A stretch of 24,895 nucleotides of DNA from the IMG/VR virus record IMGVR_UViG_3300036982_000202, positions 1-24,895 of that record; one strand, written 5' to 3'. The notes under the pieces were generated by a model that saw nothing but the letters and a program-made list of their open reading frames with translations, made no database searches and had not been told where the DNA came from. Shown here in pieces: positions 5,307 through 24,145 of this stretch (position 1 is its first letter; every line of letters starts with the position of its first letter). Both the position numbers and the translations under genes were made by a program. Origin of the DNA: a virus (Duplodnaviria > Caudoviricetes).

Positions 5307-5825
5307 ATGAAAAGTGCTGAGAAAAATAAGTCAAAAGAACTGATTGATGTCAAGAGCATATCCGATTATTTGGATTACTCACCTGAGACTGGGGTTTTTA
5401 TCTGGAAAGTTAAAACCAAAACTAGCAATGTGAACGATGTTGCGGGAAACGCAAATTGGCGTGGATATGTTTCCATCTGGATTAACGCAAAACCATATTA
5501 TGCCCACAGATTGGCTTGGGCAATTTCTCATGGTGAATGGCCTATTGGTGACATTGATCACATAAATGAGGACAAGTCAGATAATAGGATTTCAAATTTA
5601 AGAGTAGCAAGCCGATCTGAGAATATGTTTAATCGGGGTTCAAATAAAAACAATACTTCTGGAATGAAAGGAGTTAGTTTTTGCAAATCGACAAATAGAT
5701 GGCGAGCGCAGATTACAATGGATAGAAAAAGCGTGAATGTTGGTCGATTCCAAACCAAGGAGGAAGCTGCAAATGCCTATATTCTAAAAGCTCGAAAAAT
5801 TAGAGGGGAGTTTGCTAAGTGTTAA
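5307..5825 (+). CDS. HNH endonuclease with C-terminal AP2 DNA-binding domain (free-standing homing endonuclease type)
   Basis: YYAHRLAW...IDHINEDKSDNRISNLR (HNH) and NNTSGMKGVSF...RWRAQI...VGRFQTKEEAANAY...GEFA (AP2). Confidence 0.92.
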   Translation: MKSAEKNKSKELIDVKSISDYLDYSPETGVFIWKVKTKTSNVNDVAGNANWRGYVSIWINAKPYYAHRLAWAISHGEWPIGDIDHINEDKSDNRISNLRVASRSENMFNRGSNKNNTSGMKGVSFCKSTNRWRAQITMDRKSVNVGRFQTKEEAANAYILKARKIRGEFAKC

Positions 5826-10638: not shown

Positions 10639-10881
10639 ATGGAAAAGCGATTTACAAAGATAGTTACCAATCCCACTACTGGACGCAAAAGAACCGTAAA
10701 GTTTGGTCAAGCAGGCAAGGCAGCAGACGGTGGTGATCGCATTCGTCCAGGTACTGCTAAAGGTGATTCGTATTGCGCTAGGTCAAACGGAATCAAGGGC
10801 GACTGGCGTAGTGATAAGAACTCACCGAATAACCTGTCACGCCGCAAATGGAAGTGCAAGGGAGATAAATCAATGAAATAA
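10639..10881 (+). CDS. Small basic conserved phage protein
   Basis: TVKFGQAG...SYCARS.GI...SPNNLSRRKWKC pattern, recurrent in small proteins of aquatic phages. Confidence 0.75.
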   Translation: MEKRFTKIVTNPTTGRKRTVKFGQAGKAADGGDRIRPGTAKGDSYCARSNGIKGDWRSDKNSPNNLSRRKWKCKGDKSMK

Positions 10882-10885
10882 CTCT

Positions 10886-11053
10886 ATGAAGAATTTAAAA
10901 ACAAAAGTCGCAAAAGTCATGGGCGAGTACAAAGCTGGAACACTTCACGCTGGGCGTAATCCAAAGGGGCCGAAGAAAGCACCAATTGTTAAAAATCGCA
11001 AACAGGCAGTAGCTATCGCTCTCAGCCAAGCAGGAATGTCAAAACGTAAATAA
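10886..11053 (+). CDS. Small basic protein, DUF6496-like (55 aa)
   Basis: MKNLKTKVAKVMGEYKAGTLHAGRNPKGPKKAPIVKNRKQAVAIALSQAGMSKRK. KVxKVMxExKxGTLH and KQAVAIALS motifs. Not in the ORF track. Confidence 0.8.
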   Translation: MKNLKTKVAKVMGEYKAGTLHAGRNPKGPKKAPIVKNRKQAVAIALSQAGMSKRK

Positions 11054-11057
11054 ATCC

Positions 11058-11189
11058 ATGAAAAAAAGTAAATCAGGAAGTTGTAATCACGAAAAGATGG
11101 AAAACAAAGGAAAAGGTAAAGGTAAGGGCTACGTCGAGATTGAAATCAAGATGGGTAAAATGCCGAAAAAATCAGCTAAACGCAAATGA
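11058..11189 (+). CDS. Small Lys-rich protein (43 aa)
   Basis: MKKSKSGSCNHEKMENKGKGKGKGYVEIEIKMGKMPKKSAKRK. ATGA overlap with the next gene. Not in the ORF track. Confidence 0.65.
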   Translation: MKKSKSGSCNHEKMENKGKGKGKGYVEIEIKMGKMPKKSAKRK

Positions 11190-11389
11190 CCCCAATACCA
11201 AAACCAACGCTACAACAGGCAATCGACGGCATCAGCGACCGTGACGAGTTCAAAGCAATTGTATTATTTATCCGCGAAGAACGTGAAAAGTTCTTTGGTG
11301 ATCTTAGGTCAGCAGAATCATCCAATGACGTTATGAAGATTGCTGGATCAATTGCAGCACTTGATGAACTACTTTCAGTCTTGTCTTGA
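11186..11389 (+). CDS. Small helical protein of the portal-scaffold interval
   Basis: 67-aa ORF ending IAGSIAALDELL, of the kind often found between portal and scaffold genes. Confidence 0.7.
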   Translation: MTPIPKPTLQQAIDGISDRDEFKAIVLFIREEREKFFGDLRSAESSNDVMKIAGSIAALDELLSVLS

Positions 11390-11412
11390 CATCATCGTAA
11401 TCATGTTATAAC
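11386..11412 (+). promoter_or_regulatory. Sigma70-type promoter (extended -10)
   Basis: TTGACA 11386-11391; TGtTATAAC 11404-11412. The spacer to TATAAC is only 15 nt. Confidence 0.5.
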
Positions 11413-11418
11413 AAAGTC

Positions 11419-11491
11419 ATGCGCGGTTGTTCGTGCGTTTCATTGTTGTTGTGTTTAAAGCCTCCGAGCGTAAAAACTTGGAGGCTTTTTT
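11419..11491 (+). ncRNA. Candidate small RNA: 5' hairpin, U/G-rich single-stranded tract, terminator
   Basis: Bounded by the promoter and an intrinsic terminator. Hairpin ATGCGCGG-ttgt-TCGTGCGT; linker TTTCATTGTTGTTGTGTT. Confidence 0.5.
11457..11491 (+). terminator. Rho-independent terminator
   Basis: AAAGCCTCCGAG-cgtaaaaa-CTTGGAGGCTTT followed by TTT. Confidence 0.85.
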
Positions 11492-11557
11492 ACGTCTATA
11501 CCTATACATTACTAAACTACTTGACATGCTAATGGTTTAATGATTGACTTCGTGCAT

Positions 11558-11586
11558 CGCCAACGCAAGGCGTAAAACTAGCGTTT
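11558..11586 (+). promoter_or_regulatory. Predicted H-type pseudoknot in the scaffold leader
   Basis: CGCC (11558-61) pairs with GGCG (11569-72); loop AACGC (11562-66) pairs with GCGTT (11581-85), 1 nt before the ATG at 11587. Confidence 0.4.
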
Positions 11587-12636
11587 ATGACTAATAGCAC
11601 CAATCAAGCCACCGCTGAGGCTACACAATCAGTGTCAGATAACATCTCATTTGAAGAGCTTGTAGCTCGTAGAATCGGGAGAGAAGTTGCACCAGAGACG
11701 GAAGAAGAGTCCGAGGAGGAAGTAGTAGATACTGATGACGCTGAACTTGCCAGTCTAGAAGACGGAGATGACGCAGAGGAATCTACTGAAGAATCTGATG
11801 ACGAATCGGAAGAAACTCCAGAGGAGCATGAAGAAATAGACCTGCTAAGTCTTTCAACAGAGCAGATTCAAGAACTTGCCAAAAAAGGTAAAAGCCGACT
11901 ACTTCAACGAATTGGAGAGCTTACCGCCCAAAAGCGGAGCCTAGAGGAAAAACTTGCTGCTCAACCACTACTAGCCCCACTAGCGAATGGTGACAGAATG
12001 CCAGACGACATCCAAGCAATTGGAGATCTGAATGCACTGAAATCATTCCATGAGGAGATGGCAAGGACGTTGGAGATGACGGATGACATTCTTGACGAAC
12101 ACCAAGATTATGCTGATGACGATATTATCGTTGTTGGTGACAAAGAGTTCCCCAAGTCTAAAATCCGTCTAGCTAACCGCAATTCCAAAAAGGCAATTAC
12201 CAAGTACATCCCTGCAAGACAGCAGGAGATTGCAAAGGTTGCCGAGTACGGGGTGATGGAAAAGCAATACTTAGCAGCAGCGCAAAAAGAAGTTCCAGAC
12301 ATTGCGGACGAAACATCCGAGATTGGAAAGAACTATAAAGCACTAATTTCTGACCCGTTAATTTCTAAAATCAAACGAGACATCCCAGAGATTGGGATAC
12401 AAATAGAATACATCCTTGCACACGCATCAAAGTCTATCTTTGGAGGAAAAGTAAAGTCTATACAAACTGGAGCTGGGAATAAGTTGAAGGTGTCGCCACC
12501 CGCTTCCCCAGTTGGTTCTGGTTCGTTAAAGATTAACTCTAGCTTAAAGGCAAAGACTAAAGATGCGTACCATAGGTTTGAATCAACAGGATCTGTTGAA
12601 GATTGGGTTGCTTCCAGAATTGCTAGAATGAAATAA
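11587..12636 (+). CDS. Capsid scaffolding protein
   Basis: Highly acidic N-terminus, coiled coil (RLLQRIGELTAQKRSLEEKL) and basic C-terminal helix-turn-helix. Directly upstream of the major capsid gene. Confidence 0.8.
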   Translation: MTNSTNQATAEATQSVSDNISFEELVARRIGREVAPETEEESEEEVVDTDDAELASLEDGDDAEESTEESDDESEETPEEHEEIDLLSLSTEQIQELAKKGKSRLLQRIGELTAQKRSLEEKLAAQPLLAPLANGDRMPDDIQAIGDLNALKSFHEEMARTLEMTDDILDEHQDYADDDIIVVGDKEFPKSKIRLANRNSKKAITKYIPARQQEIAKVAEYGVMEKQYLAAAQKEVPDIADETSEIGKNYKALISDPLISKIKRDIPEIGIQIEYILAHASKSIFGGKVKSIQTGAGNKLKVSPPASPVGSGSLKINSSLKAKTKDAYHRFESTGSVEDWVASRIARMK

Positions 12637-20650: not shown

Positions 20651-21376
20651 TTACTGGTTATTTTGAGAGAATTTTCCATGCCATTGCTGCACATAGTGGG
20701 ACTTGTCCGTTACCAATGGCTTTAAGTCTGTCCACCCTATCGACCATCCCATCAGCCATTCGACCCACATTGGGTTCAACTTCCCACCAGCGTAAGTTGC
20801 AAGCGAAAGAGTCCGTCTTCTGTATTCTGCCGGGTAAGCTGCTTCTTTGCTGTTGTGACACGTTGGTGTAGGAAATTTTTTCTTGCTGGTTTTTACCAAC
20901 AATCCAGATTCTATCTCGTTGGTGATTTGCTCCGACATTTCCAGCTCCCAACACTCCCCACTTTGCATCATACCCCATTTCGGCAAGGTCAGCAAGGATG
21001 GTGCTAAGTCCTCTTCCCACAAGCATTGGTGAGTTTTCCACGAAAGCGTATTTAGGTCGAACTTCACCGATGATTCTCGCCATGTGCTTCCACATACTGC
21101 TTCTTGATCCTTCGATTCCTGCACCTTTTCCTGCTGATGATATGTCTTGGCAAGGGAATCCTCCACACACGATGTCAACTTTTCCGCGCCAGGGTGTTCC
21201 GTCAAAGGTACAGACATCATCCCAGATTGGGAACTTTGGCAAGATTCCGTCTCGTTGTCTTTGGAGTAAGACCTTTCGGCAGTAAGGTTCAATCTCGACA
21301 GCACATACGGTGGTATGTCCGCAAAGCATCCCGCCAAGGATACCTCCTCCCGCTCCTGCAAATAAGTGTAGCTCAT
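20651..21376 (-). CDS. Overlapping alternative-frame methyltransferase beta polypeptide (motif IX, probable TRD)
   Basis: Frame is open for 241 codons; FPTPT...GGKLNPMWVEWLMGWSIGWTDL. True start uncertain and may be internal. Confidence 0.7.
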   Translation of the reverse strand: MSYTYLQEREEVSLAGCFADIPPYVLSRLNLTAERSYSKDNETESCQSSQSGMMSVPLTEHPGAEKLTSCVEDSLAKTYHQQEKVQESKDQEAVCGSTWRESSVKFDLNTLSWKTHQCLWEEDLAPSLLTLPKWGMMQSGECWELEMSEQITNEIESGLLVKTSKKKFPTPTCHNSKEAAYPAEYRRRTLSLATYAGGKLNPMWVEWLMGWSIGWTDLKPLVTDKSHYVQQWHGKFSQNNQ

Positions 21377-21380
21377 TCAT
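20658..21380 (-). CDS. C5-cytosine DNA methyltransferase, alpha polypeptide (motifs I-VIII and X)
   Basis: LFAGAGG (I), GFPCQDIS (IV), ENS (VI), HQRDRIWIV (VIII), RLKAIGNGQV (X). No motif IX in this frame. Confidence 0.92.
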   Translation of the reverse strand: MNELHLFAGAGGGILGGMLCGHTTVCAVEIEPYCRKVLLQRQRDGILPKFPIWDDVCTFDGTPWRGKVDIVCGGFPCQDISSAGKGAGIEGSRSSMWKHMARIIGEVRPKYAFVENSPMLVGRGLSTILADLAEMGYDAKWGVLGAGNVGANHQRDRIWIVGKNQQEKISYTNVSQQQRSSLPGRIQKTDSFACNLRWWEVEPNVGRMADGMVDRVDRLKAIGNGQVPLCAAMAWKILSK

Positions 21381-21444
21381 TTATGTTGTTGTTGTTCAAA
21401 AGTGTTAAAATATCCGTAATGGATGTTCAGGTCAGCGAGCAGGG

Positions 21445-22563: not shown

Positions 22564-22738
22564 GAATTTGTAGTGCCTTCTCGGCTTTCGCTTTAGTTTT
22601 CTCCGTTAAACCAATGCCTAAAATGTATTCCAATGCTTCCGCTAGCCTATTCCGCTCGCGTTCTAGCTTTTCAGCAAACTCGGTTGGTACAACGTGGTTA
22701 CCTCGCGCTAAATTATCGGTTTCTGGTGTGTTAGTCAT
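22556..22738 (-). CDS. TPETD/LERER-motif hypothetical protein
   Basis: MTNTPETD...VVPTEFAEKLERERN. Confidence 0.75.
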   Translation of the reverse strand: MTNTPETDNLARGNHVVPTEFAEKLERERNRLAEALEYILGIGLTEKTKAKAEKALQIHE

Positions 22739-23649: not shown

Positions 23650-23916
23650 TCAGGTAGATGGGAAAAGAAGTGATTGGACTCCCAGCATGATGTGTTTAAT
23701 TTCTCCAGATGAATCAAGGCCTGATAAGTAAAACTCTTCCGTATCAACCGAATAATAAAGATCCACAAAACTATTTTTGCACCTTACTGGTATTCCGTAA
23801 TGCTTGAGACCATGAGGGATATTGTCATTTTCAACTCGGTCTAAAAGATAATCAGCAGCTTCTCCAAGTTCCTTGTGAAAGTTTTTTAGGTAGCAATGTA
23901 TTTCTCTATCTTTCAT
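23650..23916 (-). CDS. Hypothetical protein
   Basis: 88-aa ORF with an A-rich leader, tightly packed in the operon. Confidence 0.6.
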   Translation of the reverse strand: MKDREIHCYLKNFHKELGEAADYLLDRVENDNIPHGLKHYGIPVRCKNSFVDLYYSVDTEEFYLSGLDSSGEIKHIMLGVQSLLFPST

Positions 23917-23950
23917 TGTTTTGTATTACTAATTTCGTCACCGTTAGTAG

Positions 23951-24145
23951 TTACGGGTTGTACGGATCGTCACCGTGTTGGAAATCACATTCCTCGCAGG
24001 TCATGCCGTAAAGATAATGCCATTCTTTGATTCTGTAGCACTTGTGGCAAATGTATACCTCAGTCTTGCCAAATATCCTCTCGTAGTTTTCGGCATACTT
24101 CCCGCAATCTACTTTGCGTGGGGTGCTACCCTTGCCTGCGCTCAT
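23951..24145 (-). CDS. Small GKGSxPR protein with C-terminal CxxC-CxxC zinc ribbon
   Basis: MSAGKGSTPR...ENYERIFGK...CHKC...CEEC. Confidence 0.7.
   Translation of the reverse strand: MSAGKGSTPRKVDCGKYAENYERIFGKTEVYICHKCYRIKEWHYLYGMTCEECDFQHGDDPYNP

What the first reader, a model, noticed from the sequence alone, without database searches (positions are those of the whole stretch)
11386..11491. Candidate phage sRNA carrying an anti-start-codon tract complementary to early-gene initiation regions
Seen: TTGACA plus extended -10 TGtTATAAC, then about 70 nt made of a 5' hairpin (11419-11438), an unpaired tract UUUCAUUGUUGUUGUGUU (11438-11455) and a strong terminator (11457-11491). The tract is the complement of an A/C-rich leader plus AUG. 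It can form 17 bp (one bulge, one G-U) with the start of the minus-strand gene at 23916 (target 23911-23927, AAUACAAAACAAUGAAA) and 14 bp (3-nt bulge) with the methyltransferase start (21376-21392). Starts at 22738 and 22983 give 7-nt matches. Established: hairpin-seed-terminator is a classic trans-acting sRNA layout. Inference: a late sRNA that blocks translation of SD-less, A-rich-leader early or host mRNAs. Caveat: the tract is low-complexity, so some matches may be chance.
Basis: partly seen in the sequence, partly recalled or inferred. Interest (0 to 1): 0.8.

Follow-up and report, generated by a model that had tools for sequence, protein, structure and literature searches.

The report
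Conserved phage small-RNA gene, anti-start tract
Between two head-region genes of an uncultured freshwater phage lies a compact promoter-hairpin-G/U-rich tract-terminator unit that many related phages keep; it likely makes a ~75-base RNA that would pair with the start regions of the phage's early messages, but no such RNA has been seen and the two targets first proposed do not hold up.

Summary
The layout is real. It has TTGACA (11386-11391), TGtTATAAC (11404-11412), an 8-bp hairpin (11419-11438), an unpaired G/U-rich tract with one UCAU (11439-11457) and a strong terminator (11457-11491).

It is also conserved. Of 94 distinct homologous upstream regions, 51 have a terminator there, and 33 of those have the exact -35 hexamer upstream. 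36 have a G/U-rich tract and 41 have CAU. Hairpins and terminators change or are swapped, while the tract and promoter hexamers stay. CAU occurs in 18 of 25 curated tracts, against about 3 expected.

Their pairing is no better than shuffled tracts. Both target genes are missing from the closest relative, which has the identical tract.

At class level, early genes on the opposite strand have C/A-rich leaders without Shine-Dalgarno (SD) sequences, plus AUGAAA. The tract pairs somewhat better with these than with late starts in 5 of 5 genomes. There is no seed-target covariation.

There is no expression evidence for the small RNA, and the host is unknown.

Best reading (0.4): an independently transcribed sRNA with a GcvB-like G/U-rich anti-start seed. 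Rivals are a plain 3' end or relic, an antitermination leader, and a protein-binding RNA.

The parts
11386..11391 (+). -35 hexamer TTGACA, overlapping the TGA stop of the 67-aa ORF 11186-11389
   Evidence: Sequence. The exact hexamer lies 45-125 nt upstream of the terminator in 33 of the 51 distinct relatives' regions that have a terminator. It is invariant in group A.
11404..11412 (+). TG-n plus -10-like hexamer TATAAC (extended -10 type). The spacer to the -35 is only 15 nt.
   Evidence: Sequence. Invariant in the 7 group A sequences. Not listed by the promoter scan, which needs 16-18 nt. Relatives have TGn plus a T/A-rich hexamer at about 18 nt (read).
11417..11491 (+). Predicted small RNA of about 75 nt (start inferred from the promoter, end from the terminator)
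   Evidence: Fold. No transcript of this size has been seen.
11419..11438 (+). 5' hairpin: 8 pairs (three of them G-U) and a 4-nt loop
   Evidence: In group A, 3 of 8 pairs never vary and 5 vary on one side only, with 98% of cells paired. Other lineages have different hairpin sequences at the same place.
11439..11457 (+). Unpaired G/U-rich tract UUCAUUGUUGUUGUGUUUA with a single UCAU
   Evidence: Mean unpaired probability 0.88. Invariant in 6 of 7 group A sequences. CAU occurs in 18 of 25 curated lineage tracts against 3.0 expected.
11457..11491 (+). Intrinsic terminator: 12-bp stem, 8-nt loop, then six U
   Evidence: Three different terminator cassettes occur in group A, with 5 of 12 pairs changed on both sides and 100% of cells paired. 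No RNA contig bridges it, while DNA contigs do.

Best explanation
The unit is likely a small-RNA gene: host RNA polymerase would start at about 11417-11420 from the TTGACA/TGn promoter that overlaps the stop codon of the upstream ORF, and would stop at the terminator, giving an RNA of about 75 nt. This RNA would have a protective 5' hairpin, a single-stranded G/U-rich tract holding UCAU, and a U tail. The tract is predicted to pair with C/A-rich leaders that lack Shine-Dalgarno sequences, plus their AUG (AUGAAA-type starts). Such starts are typical of the phage's early genes on the opposite strand, and possibly of host mRNAs. Pairing would block 30S binding.

Shown: the layout, its conservation, the selection pattern, and the C/A-rich early leaders.

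Inferred: that the RNA is transcribed, that the pairing happens, that translation is repressed, and when.
For: 1. Conservation. 119 homologous upstream regions (the window included) give 94 distinct sequences. 51 of these have a strong terminator 86-150 nt before the scaffold-like gene. 33 have the exact -35 hexamer upstream of it, 36 have at least 70% G+U in the 24 nt before the terminator, 41 have CAU, and 24 have all four.

2. The -35 always embeds a TGA stop, behind different last codons. Lineages without the hexamer end the ORF with TAA or TAG (read).

3. Among phages whose scaffold-like protein is 96-99% identical, the hexamers and the tract are invariant. The hairpin varies only by pair-keeping changes, and the terminator occurs as three different cassettes.

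4. Deeper lineages have unrelated hairpin and terminator sequences but keep the same order of parts. In 29 distinct RNAs the first helix starts 31-39 nt after the start of the -35. The lower bound is set by where I cut the RNA.

5. L111 and L094 share the unit from 3 nt before the -35 onward, behind different upstream DNA. The unit therefore moves as promoter-to-terminator.

6. CAU is in 18 of 25 curated tracts against 3.0 expected; 0 of 5000 shuffles reach this.

7. The + strand folds more stably than the - strand in 35 of 40 distinct sequences, both for the 72 nt upstream and for the terminator.

8. Early genes have C/A-rich leaders. Tract-to-start duplexes are about 2 kcal/mol stronger for opposite-strand starts than for same-strand starts in 5 of 5 genomes, p 0.001-0.04. 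A Watson-Crick run of 7 nt or more across the AUG occurs in 22 of 126 opposite-strand starts against 7 of 127 same-strand starts (G001-G004, each with its own tract).

9. The same -35 hexamer 30 nt after the terminator precedes the points where RNA contigs of four studies begin (11536, 11555, 11564, 11570), while DNA contigs run through. This is a weak hint that the host polymerase uses such promoters and that the terminator works.
Against: - No RNA of this size has been seen. All runs are assemblies, which cannot show ends, and short RNAs are usually lost.
- One RNA contig runs from the upstream ORF into the tract (11186-11452). This fits a plain mRNA 3' end equally well.
- Pairing with the window's starts is no better than shuffled tracts. 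Pairing with early starts is not consistently better than with internal gene windows, p 0.002-0.5.
- There is no own-versus-foreign excess in the seed/start matrix.
- The spacer to the best -10 is 15 nt.
- 18 of the 51 terminator-bearing regions lack the exact -35. Two lineages (L063, L119) have a hairpin and terminator but no tract. 43 of 94 regions have no unit at all.
- Within families the 5' hairpin shows only one-sided changes.
- G/U-rich tracts beside hairpins also arise on this strand wherever an early gene's leader lies opposite.
- The sequences are related, so the counts are not independent.
- The host is unknown.
Confidence: 0.4

Rival explanations
1. The unit is only the 3' end of the upstream operon. 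The hairpin and terminator end and stabilise that mRNA. The G/U tract is a relic, or mirror image, of an early-type start region that once served a minus-strand gene at this spot. It has no trans function.
For: - The unit sits directly behind the 67-aa ORF.
- An RNA contig covers 11186-11452 in one piece.
- 18 of 51 terminator-bearing regions lack the exact -35.
- In L013, L082, L087, L118 and L126 a minus-strand gene does start at this locus, and its leader read backwards looks like the tract.
- G/U tracts beside hairpins occur opposite early-gene leaders elsewhere (G001 26553, G004 5238).
- Target pairing is only compositional.
Against: - A relic would not stay invariant while the hairpin and terminator around it change.
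- A relic would not keep UCAU across lineages down to about 50% protein identity.
- The -35 hexamer is conserved at nucleotide level across different codons.
- Relatives that lack the unit have no terminator here at all, so the operon does not need one (L049, L110, L112, L117).
- Minus-strand reading frames from the ATG are 8-37 codons long and change frame between variants (read).
Confidence: 0.25
2. The unit is a leader for regulated read-through, of the antitermination or attenuation type seen in lambda nut or PR'-tR'. A promoter fires into a terminator just before the head genes, and a phage factor that recognises the hairpin or the G/U tract would let polymerase pass into the scaffold and capsid genes. 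The short RNA would be a by-product.
For: - Position: promoter, short transcript and terminator lie immediately upstream of the scaffold-like and major capsid genes.
- Short terminated transcripts from an always-active late promoter are known; StxS comes from PR' (PMC7547250, search listing and start of abstract only).
- A hairpin followed by a G/U-rich stretch recalls the boxB/boxC order of nut sites (recalled, not tested).
Against: - A second, more widely conserved promoter-like element lies between the terminator and the gene (11521-11549). It is present even in relatives without the unit.
- Scaffold-gene RNA contigs from four studies start after it (11536-11570) and none bridges the terminator.
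- The unit is absent from 43 of 94 related regions that keep the same head genes.
- No antiterminator gene was recognised in the window.
Confidence: 0.1
3. A small RNA is made, but it works by binding a protein (for example a host RNA chaperone or a translation factor) through the G/U-rich tract. It would be a sponge or decoy rather than an mRNA-pairing RNA.
For: - The same evidence as above that the unit is an RNA gene.
- The conserved feature is a composition plus a short motif (G/U-rich, UCAU), not a long specific sequence.
- There is no seed-target covariation.
Against: - No candidate protein is known and the host is unknown.
- The motif is the exact complement of AUGA, and the tract mirrors the C/A-rich early leaders, which a pairing model explains directly.
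- No Rfam family matches.
Confidence: 0.1
4. One reading: a late sRNA whose main targets are the gene starting at 23916 and the methyltransferase gene starting at 21376.
For: 10-nt perfect cores and duplexes of -15.3 and -15.6 kcal/mol at these starts.
Against: - Both genes are absent from G001, the closest relative, which is 98% complete and has an identical tract. Window 20652-21403 and 23650-24041 have no counterpart there, and a protein search finds nothing.
- 53% of shuffled tracts do as well.
- Stronger sites lie inside genes.
Confidence: 0.05

Closest known systems
GcvB sRNA (R1 seed) of enterobacteria
   Same: [quoted passage not shown] 2007). The RNA ends in an intrinsic terminator.
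   Different: No homology: no Rfam match at gathering score, and no GcvB match even at E up to 10 in 11300-11620. This RNA is phage-encoded and about 75 nt instead of about 200. Its tract includes the anti-AUG UCAU. Hfq dependence and targets are unknown. My memory that the R1 letters closely resemble this tract is recall only.
DapZ / MicL class of 3'UTR-embedded sRNAs with their own promoter
   Same: An sRNA expressed from a promoter inside or at the end of the upstream coding region, sharing that mRNA's terminator (passage of PMC4474525). Here the -35 overlaps the stop codon.
   Different: The promoter is inferred from sequence only, and there is no homology. That DapZ carries a GcvB-like seed is recalled, not read here.
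c4 RNA of phages P1/P7 and sar RNA of P22
   Same: Phage-encoded small RNAs that block translation by pairing around the ribosome-binding site of a phage mRNA (review PMC12197685, sections 2 and 7).
   Different: Each of those acts on one gene (ant), through loops of a structured RNA or as a cis-antisense. Here no gene lies opposite, the seed is a linear low-complexity tract, and the predicted target is a class of start regions. There is no Rfam C4 match.
T4 RegA and RegB (proteins)
   Same: The job would be the same: shutting off many early mRNAs at their initiation regions. RegA sites overlap or abut the AUG on about 30 mRNAs and lack structure. RegB cuts within initiation regions (passages of PMC3014915).
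   Different: Those are proteins. Here an RNA would do the job by base pairing. Neither gene was recognised in the window.
Lambdoid PR'-tR' short transcripts (6S RNA, StxS)
   Same: A promoter followed at once by a terminator ahead of late genes, giving a short RNA that can itself regulate (PMC7547250, listing and start of abstract; 6S is mentioned in PMC12197685).
   Different: Here a separate conserved promoter follows the terminator, the unit is optional among relatives, and no Q-like gene was found.

Membership tests
Trans-acting base-pairing sRNA (generic) | Own transcription start | tested here: inconclusive
   The -35 hexamer is conserved in 33 of 51 terminator-bearing regions, and TGn plus a -10-like hexamer is present. 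No 5' end could be seen because only assembled contigs were available.
Trans-acting base-pairing sRNA (generic) | Intrinsic terminator at the 3' end | tested here: met
   A 12-bp stem plus U run. 100% of cells are paired, with 5 pairs changed on both sides. No RNA contig bridges it.
Trans-acting base-pairing sRNA (generic) | Conserved, accessible seed | tested here: met
   Unpaired probability is 0.88. The tract is invariant in 6 of 7 close relatives while the stems vary. UCAU and G/U-richness are kept across lineages.
Trans-acting base-pairing sRNA (generic) | Complementarity to targets beyond chance, kept in evolution | tested here: not met
   Pairing is no better than shuffles. The named targets are absent in G001. 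There is no own-versus-foreign excess. Only a compositional early-over-late bias is seen.
GcvB (Rfam family) | Match to the covariance model | tested here: not met
   No match at gathering score in the window. None is listed up to E = 10 in 11300-11620.
3'UTR-embedded sRNA with internal promoter (DapZ/MicL class) | Promoter within or overlapping the upstream CDS, and a terminator shared with that mRNA | tested here: inconclusive
   By sequence this is met: the -35 overlaps the TGA stop, and there is only one terminator behind the ORF. Promoter activity was not tested.
c4 / sar type phage antisense RNA | Encoded opposite, or adjacent in the same operon, to its single target's ribosome-binding site | tested here: not met
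   No ORF of 50 aa or more lies opposite 11390-11586. Minus-strand frames here are 8-37 codons and not conserved (read). No Rfam C4 match.
PR'-tR' / nut-type antitermination leader | Read-through into downstream genes, and a cognate antiterminator | tested here: inconclusive
   No bridging RNA contig, and no antiterminator family hit. A separate downstream promoter is conserved. Contigs cannot exclude read-through.
Any Rfam 15 family | Score at or above gathering threshold | tested here: not met
   0 matches in the window and in 10 related loci. The best sub-threshold hit is BTnc049, 20.9 bits against a cut-off of 81.9, E 0.22.

The most novel reading that the evidence does not exclude
A family of uncultured freshwater phages carries a tiny RNA gene whose G/U-rich, UCAU-bearing seed is a generic mirror of start regions that lack Shine-Dalgarno sequences and have C/A-rich leaders. 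As the RNA accumulates it masks the starts of the phage's whole early-gene block, and perhaps host mRNAs of the same type. This would be an RNA-only counterpart of T4 RegA/RegB that drives the early-to-late switch in hosts that initiate translation without Shine-Dalgarno pairing.
Probability: 0.25. Interest if true: 0.8.

Novelty: new variant of a known kind. Interest (0 to 1): 0.55.

Why it matters
Known phage small RNAs mostly act on one gene or on a host regulator (review PMC12197685, sections 2 and 7 read). A phage RNA that targets a whole class of start regions by a low-complexity anti-leader plus anti-AUG seed would be a new way to time a lytic programme. It would also bear on how translation is controlled on mRNAs without Shine-Dalgarno sequences.

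The unit is small, modular and widespread in one phage group. Its seed and start regions could be tested directly in reporters.

My three literature searches listed no described phage sRNA of this kind. That is a limited search, not proof of absence.

Tried and rejected
- **Rfam.** Gathering-score search of the window and of 10 related loci gave nothing. The permissive search gave only chance-level hits.
- **Phage genomes.** blastn of 10800-12000 against INPHARED phages gave no match.
- **Host search.** Prophage relatives were sought in 185,579 species genomes, with the capsid protein and with the scaffold alignment. Neither found a relative.
- **Expression.** Six metatranscriptome runs were laid, all as assembled contigs. 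No contig corresponds to the 75-nt RNA, and cover over 11410-11490 is low. This says nothing either way, because short RNAs are usually lost and contigs cannot show ends.
- **Coding readings.** The + strand ORF from ATG 11420 runs through the terminator and ends differently in close relatives. Minus-strand micro-ORFs are 8-37 codons long and shift frame between variants. Both were rejected.
- **Seed-target covariation.** The 9-nt core AACATGAAA occurs 4 times at early starts in G004, whose tract matches it, and 0-1 times elsewhere. But the full own-versus-foreign matrix shows no diagonal excess. I do not count this as covariation.
- **5' hairpin covariation across deep lineages.** This was not counted formally. 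The hairpins are not alignable, and five rows of alignment A2 were cut inside their hairpins.
- **Protein families.** Pfam and PHROGs scans of the neighbouring small ORFs found no RNA-binding protein or antiterminator.
- **Earlier notes.** There are none on this genome or on look-alike sequence.

Full report
**Context**

The window is a 24.9-kb fragment (66% complete) of an uncultured phage. The plus strand carries these genes in order:
- small terminase
- an HNH endonuclease
- large terminase
- a 689-aa portal-sized ORF
- several small ORFs, up to 11389
- a 349-aa acidic, scaffold-like ORF (11587-12636)
- the major capsid gene
- tail and lysis genes

The minus strand from about 20460 to the end holds early-type genes, including a methyltransferase, a RuvC-like resolvase and a DnaC-like loader. 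'Portal' and 'scaffold' are names by size and position only; neither protein has a family hit. The finding lies in the 197-nt gap between a 67-aa ORF (11186-11389) and the scaffold-like gene.

**Observation**

- TTGACA at 11386-11391, with its TGA serving as the stop of the 67-aa ORF
- TG-T-TATAAC at 11404-11412
- a hairpin, 11419-11426 with 11431-11438
- a tract, 11439-11457
- a terminator stem, 11457-11468 with 11477-11488, followed by six T

The RNA 11417-11495 folds exactly so: -29.6 kcal/mol, z -4.9, and 0 of 200 shuffles fold as well. One weakness is the 15-nt spacer between the hexamers. It lies outside the 16-18 nt that the consensus scan accepts, so the scan did not list this promoter.

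**Relatives**

A search with the scaffold-like protein found 56 viral loci. An alignment of nine such proteins found 74 metagenome loci. I left out L008, L051, L107, L128 and L130 because their matches do not include the gene start. Seven more loci have under 330 nt upstream. That left 119 upstream regions (the window included), which collapse to 94 distinct sequences.

- 43 of the 94 have no strong terminator there. L120 is wrongly among these, because its T run failed my rule.
- 51 have a terminator. Of those, 33 have the exact -35 hexamer 45-125 nt upstream, 36 have at least 70% G+U in the 24 nt before the stem, and 41 have CAU within 32 nt. 24 have all four features.
- Six of the 51 (L021, L032, L040, L083, L089, L114) are weak hairpins elsewhere in the region and probably unrelated.

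The unit is therefore frequent but optional. In L049, L110, L112 and L117 the ORF is followed directly by the scaffold promoter. Other relatives carry different elements at this spot.

**What is under selection**

Seven group A sequences have scaffold-like proteins 96-99% identical. Among them:
- The -35 hexamer and TGTTATAAC are invariant, and the tract is invariant in six; L079 has two changes.
- Five of the eight hairpin pairs change, but only between G-C, A-U and G-U.
- The terminator occurs as three different cassettes, with five of its 12 pairs changed on both sides.
- 99.3% of 139 cells pair, against 89.1% in shuffles (0 of 500) and 22-61% when the partners are slid.

Family B (about 57% protein identity) gives the same picture for the terminator and for the base of its longer hairpin. 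For that hairpin only one-sided changes are seen.

Deeper lineages have unrelated hairpins and terminators in the same order. In 29 distinct RNAs with the -35, the first helix begins 31-39 nt after the hexamer's first base; my cut at +31 sets the lower bound.

The -35 always holds a TGA stop behind different last codons. Lineages without it end the ORF in TAA or TAG (read). L111 and L094 share the unit from 3 nt before the -35 onward, behind unrelated upstream DNA.

The plus strand folds better than the minus strand in 35 of 40 distinct sequences, both upstream and in the terminator. A G/U-rich strand is expected to fold better anyway, so this is supporting evidence only.

**The tract**

I curated 25 lineage variants by eye. 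The tract is 77% G+U. CAU is present in 18, against 3.0 expected from shuffling each tract (sd 1.6; 0 of 5000 shuffles reach 18). UCA is present in 17. The variants are related, so this overstates independence. Still, CAU sits at the 5' end of the tract in some lineages, at the 3' end in most of family B, and in the hairpin loop in L088. The anti-AUG idea therefore has comparative support.

**Targets**

The two named targets do not survive:
- 53% of 500 dinucleotide shuffles of the tract reach an equal or better best hit among the 41 start regions.
- Stronger sites lie inside genes.
- G001, the closest relative (98% complete, identical tract), lacks both genes. Window 20652-21403 and 23650-24041 have no counterpart there, and a protein search finds nothing.

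At class level there is some signal:
- Opposite-strand genes in G001-G004 have leaders without Shine-Dalgarno sequences. These leaders are rich in C and A and are often followed by AUGAAA (window starts).
- Duplexes of each phage's own tract with opposite-strand starts are about 2 kcal/mol stronger than with same-strand starts in 5 of 5 genomes, p 0.001-0.04. Against internal gene windows the difference is inconsistent, p 0.002-0.5.
- A Watson-Crick run of at least 7 nt across the AUG occurs in 22 of 126 opposite-strand starts and 7 of 127 same-strand starts (G001-G004).
- The same matrix shows no excess of own over foreign tracts, so there is no seed-target covariation.

My gene calls were crude (first ATG, 50-60 codons or more, longest-first overlap filter).

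**The mirror-image rival**

On the minus strand the locus reads hairpin, C/A-rich leader, ATGAAA. That is the pattern of an early gene start. Five relatives do have a minus-strand gene here. G/U tracts beside hairpins also appear on the plus strand opposite early leaders elsewhere. The tract could therefore descend from such a start region.

Four points argue against a mere relic:
- the tract's invariance amid changing stems
- the conserved plus-strand promoter
- the one-directional terminator
- the short, frame-shifting minus-strand ORFs

The two views can be reconciled: an inverted copy of a start region is an easy way for an antisense seed to arise. That is inference.

**Expression**

All runs that hold the phage are kept as assemblies.
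- Scaffold-gene RNA contigs from four studies begin at 11536, 11555, 11564 and 11570, with no loose ends.
- DNA contigs of two runs run through 11333-11900.
- Upstream-ORF RNA contigs end at 11390, 11414 and 11452.

This is a weak hint that the terminator works and that the second TTGACA element (11521-11526) is a real promoter. It says nothing about a 75-nt RNA.

**Comparison with known systems**

By layout, the unit is a 3'UTR-embedded sRNA with its own promoter, as in the DapZ/MicL class. By seed logic, it resembles GcvB, whose seed binds C/A-rich enhancer elements at ribosome-binding sites (PMC4474525, passages). It is a member of neither: it has no Rfam match.

Among phage RNAs, c4 and sar block a single ribosome-binding site (PMC12197685, sections 2 and 7). 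Functionally, the nearest phage analogues for a class-wide shut-off of early starts are the T4 proteins RegA and RegB (PMC3014915, passages).

Earlier notes of this scan list similar anti-start-codon RNA candidates in other uncultured phages. Those are unchecked AI notes, not evidence.

**Verdict**

This is a real, conserved, modular element. It is most likely a small-RNA gene, about two chances in three. An anti-start, anti-leader mechanism is the best single explanation, at 0.4 overall.

Noticed in passing
window 11521-11549: A promoter-like element, TTGACA-N17-TTGACT, is conserved in all relatives, including those without the small-RNA unit. RNA contigs of four studies begin 10-45 nt after its first hexamer, while DNA contigs run through. 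The second hexamer is a poor -10, so an activator or an unusual sigma factor may be involved.
   Followed up: partly
window 11558-11572: A short hairpin (CGCC, loop, GGCG) in the 5' leader of the scaffold-like gene is kept in all groups with different loops. It may be a translational operator.
   Followed up: no
L020, L024-L032 and similar, about 100-200 nt before the scaffold-like gene: Relatives of group C carry, instead of the unit, two hairpins with 12-nt loops, flanked by repeats of a 7-nt word. This may be another RNA or a protein-binding array.
   Followed up: no
L022, L065, L066, L078, L082, L089, L092, L108, L122, L126, upstream of the scaffold-like gene: A different element of about 150 nt with long-range pairing occupies the same locus. 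None of the four tested (L022, L066, L078, L082) has an Rfam match.
   Followed up: partly
L013, L082, L087, L118, L126: In these relatives a minus-strand gene starts at this locus. Its C/A-rich leader read backwards resembles the G/U tract.
   Followed up: partly
window 11457-11500 versus L002, L005, L079: Phages with 96-99% identical scaffold-like proteins carry three different terminator cassettes behind the same tract. This indicates recent recombination limited to the terminator.
   Followed up: yes
G001 (L132/L133) 24741, 26125; G003 36754: Some early genes have leaders made of (CA)n runs directly before ATGAAA. Early genes in all four complete relatives largely lack Shine-Dalgarno sequences.
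   Followed up: partly
window 10858-11053: One metatranscriptome contig skips this stretch (the ORF 10886-11053, DUF6496) and has 21 other letters in its place. This is a strain variant without that small gene.
   Followed up: no
window 5307-5825: An HNH endonuclease gene sits between the small and large terminase genes.
   Followed up: no
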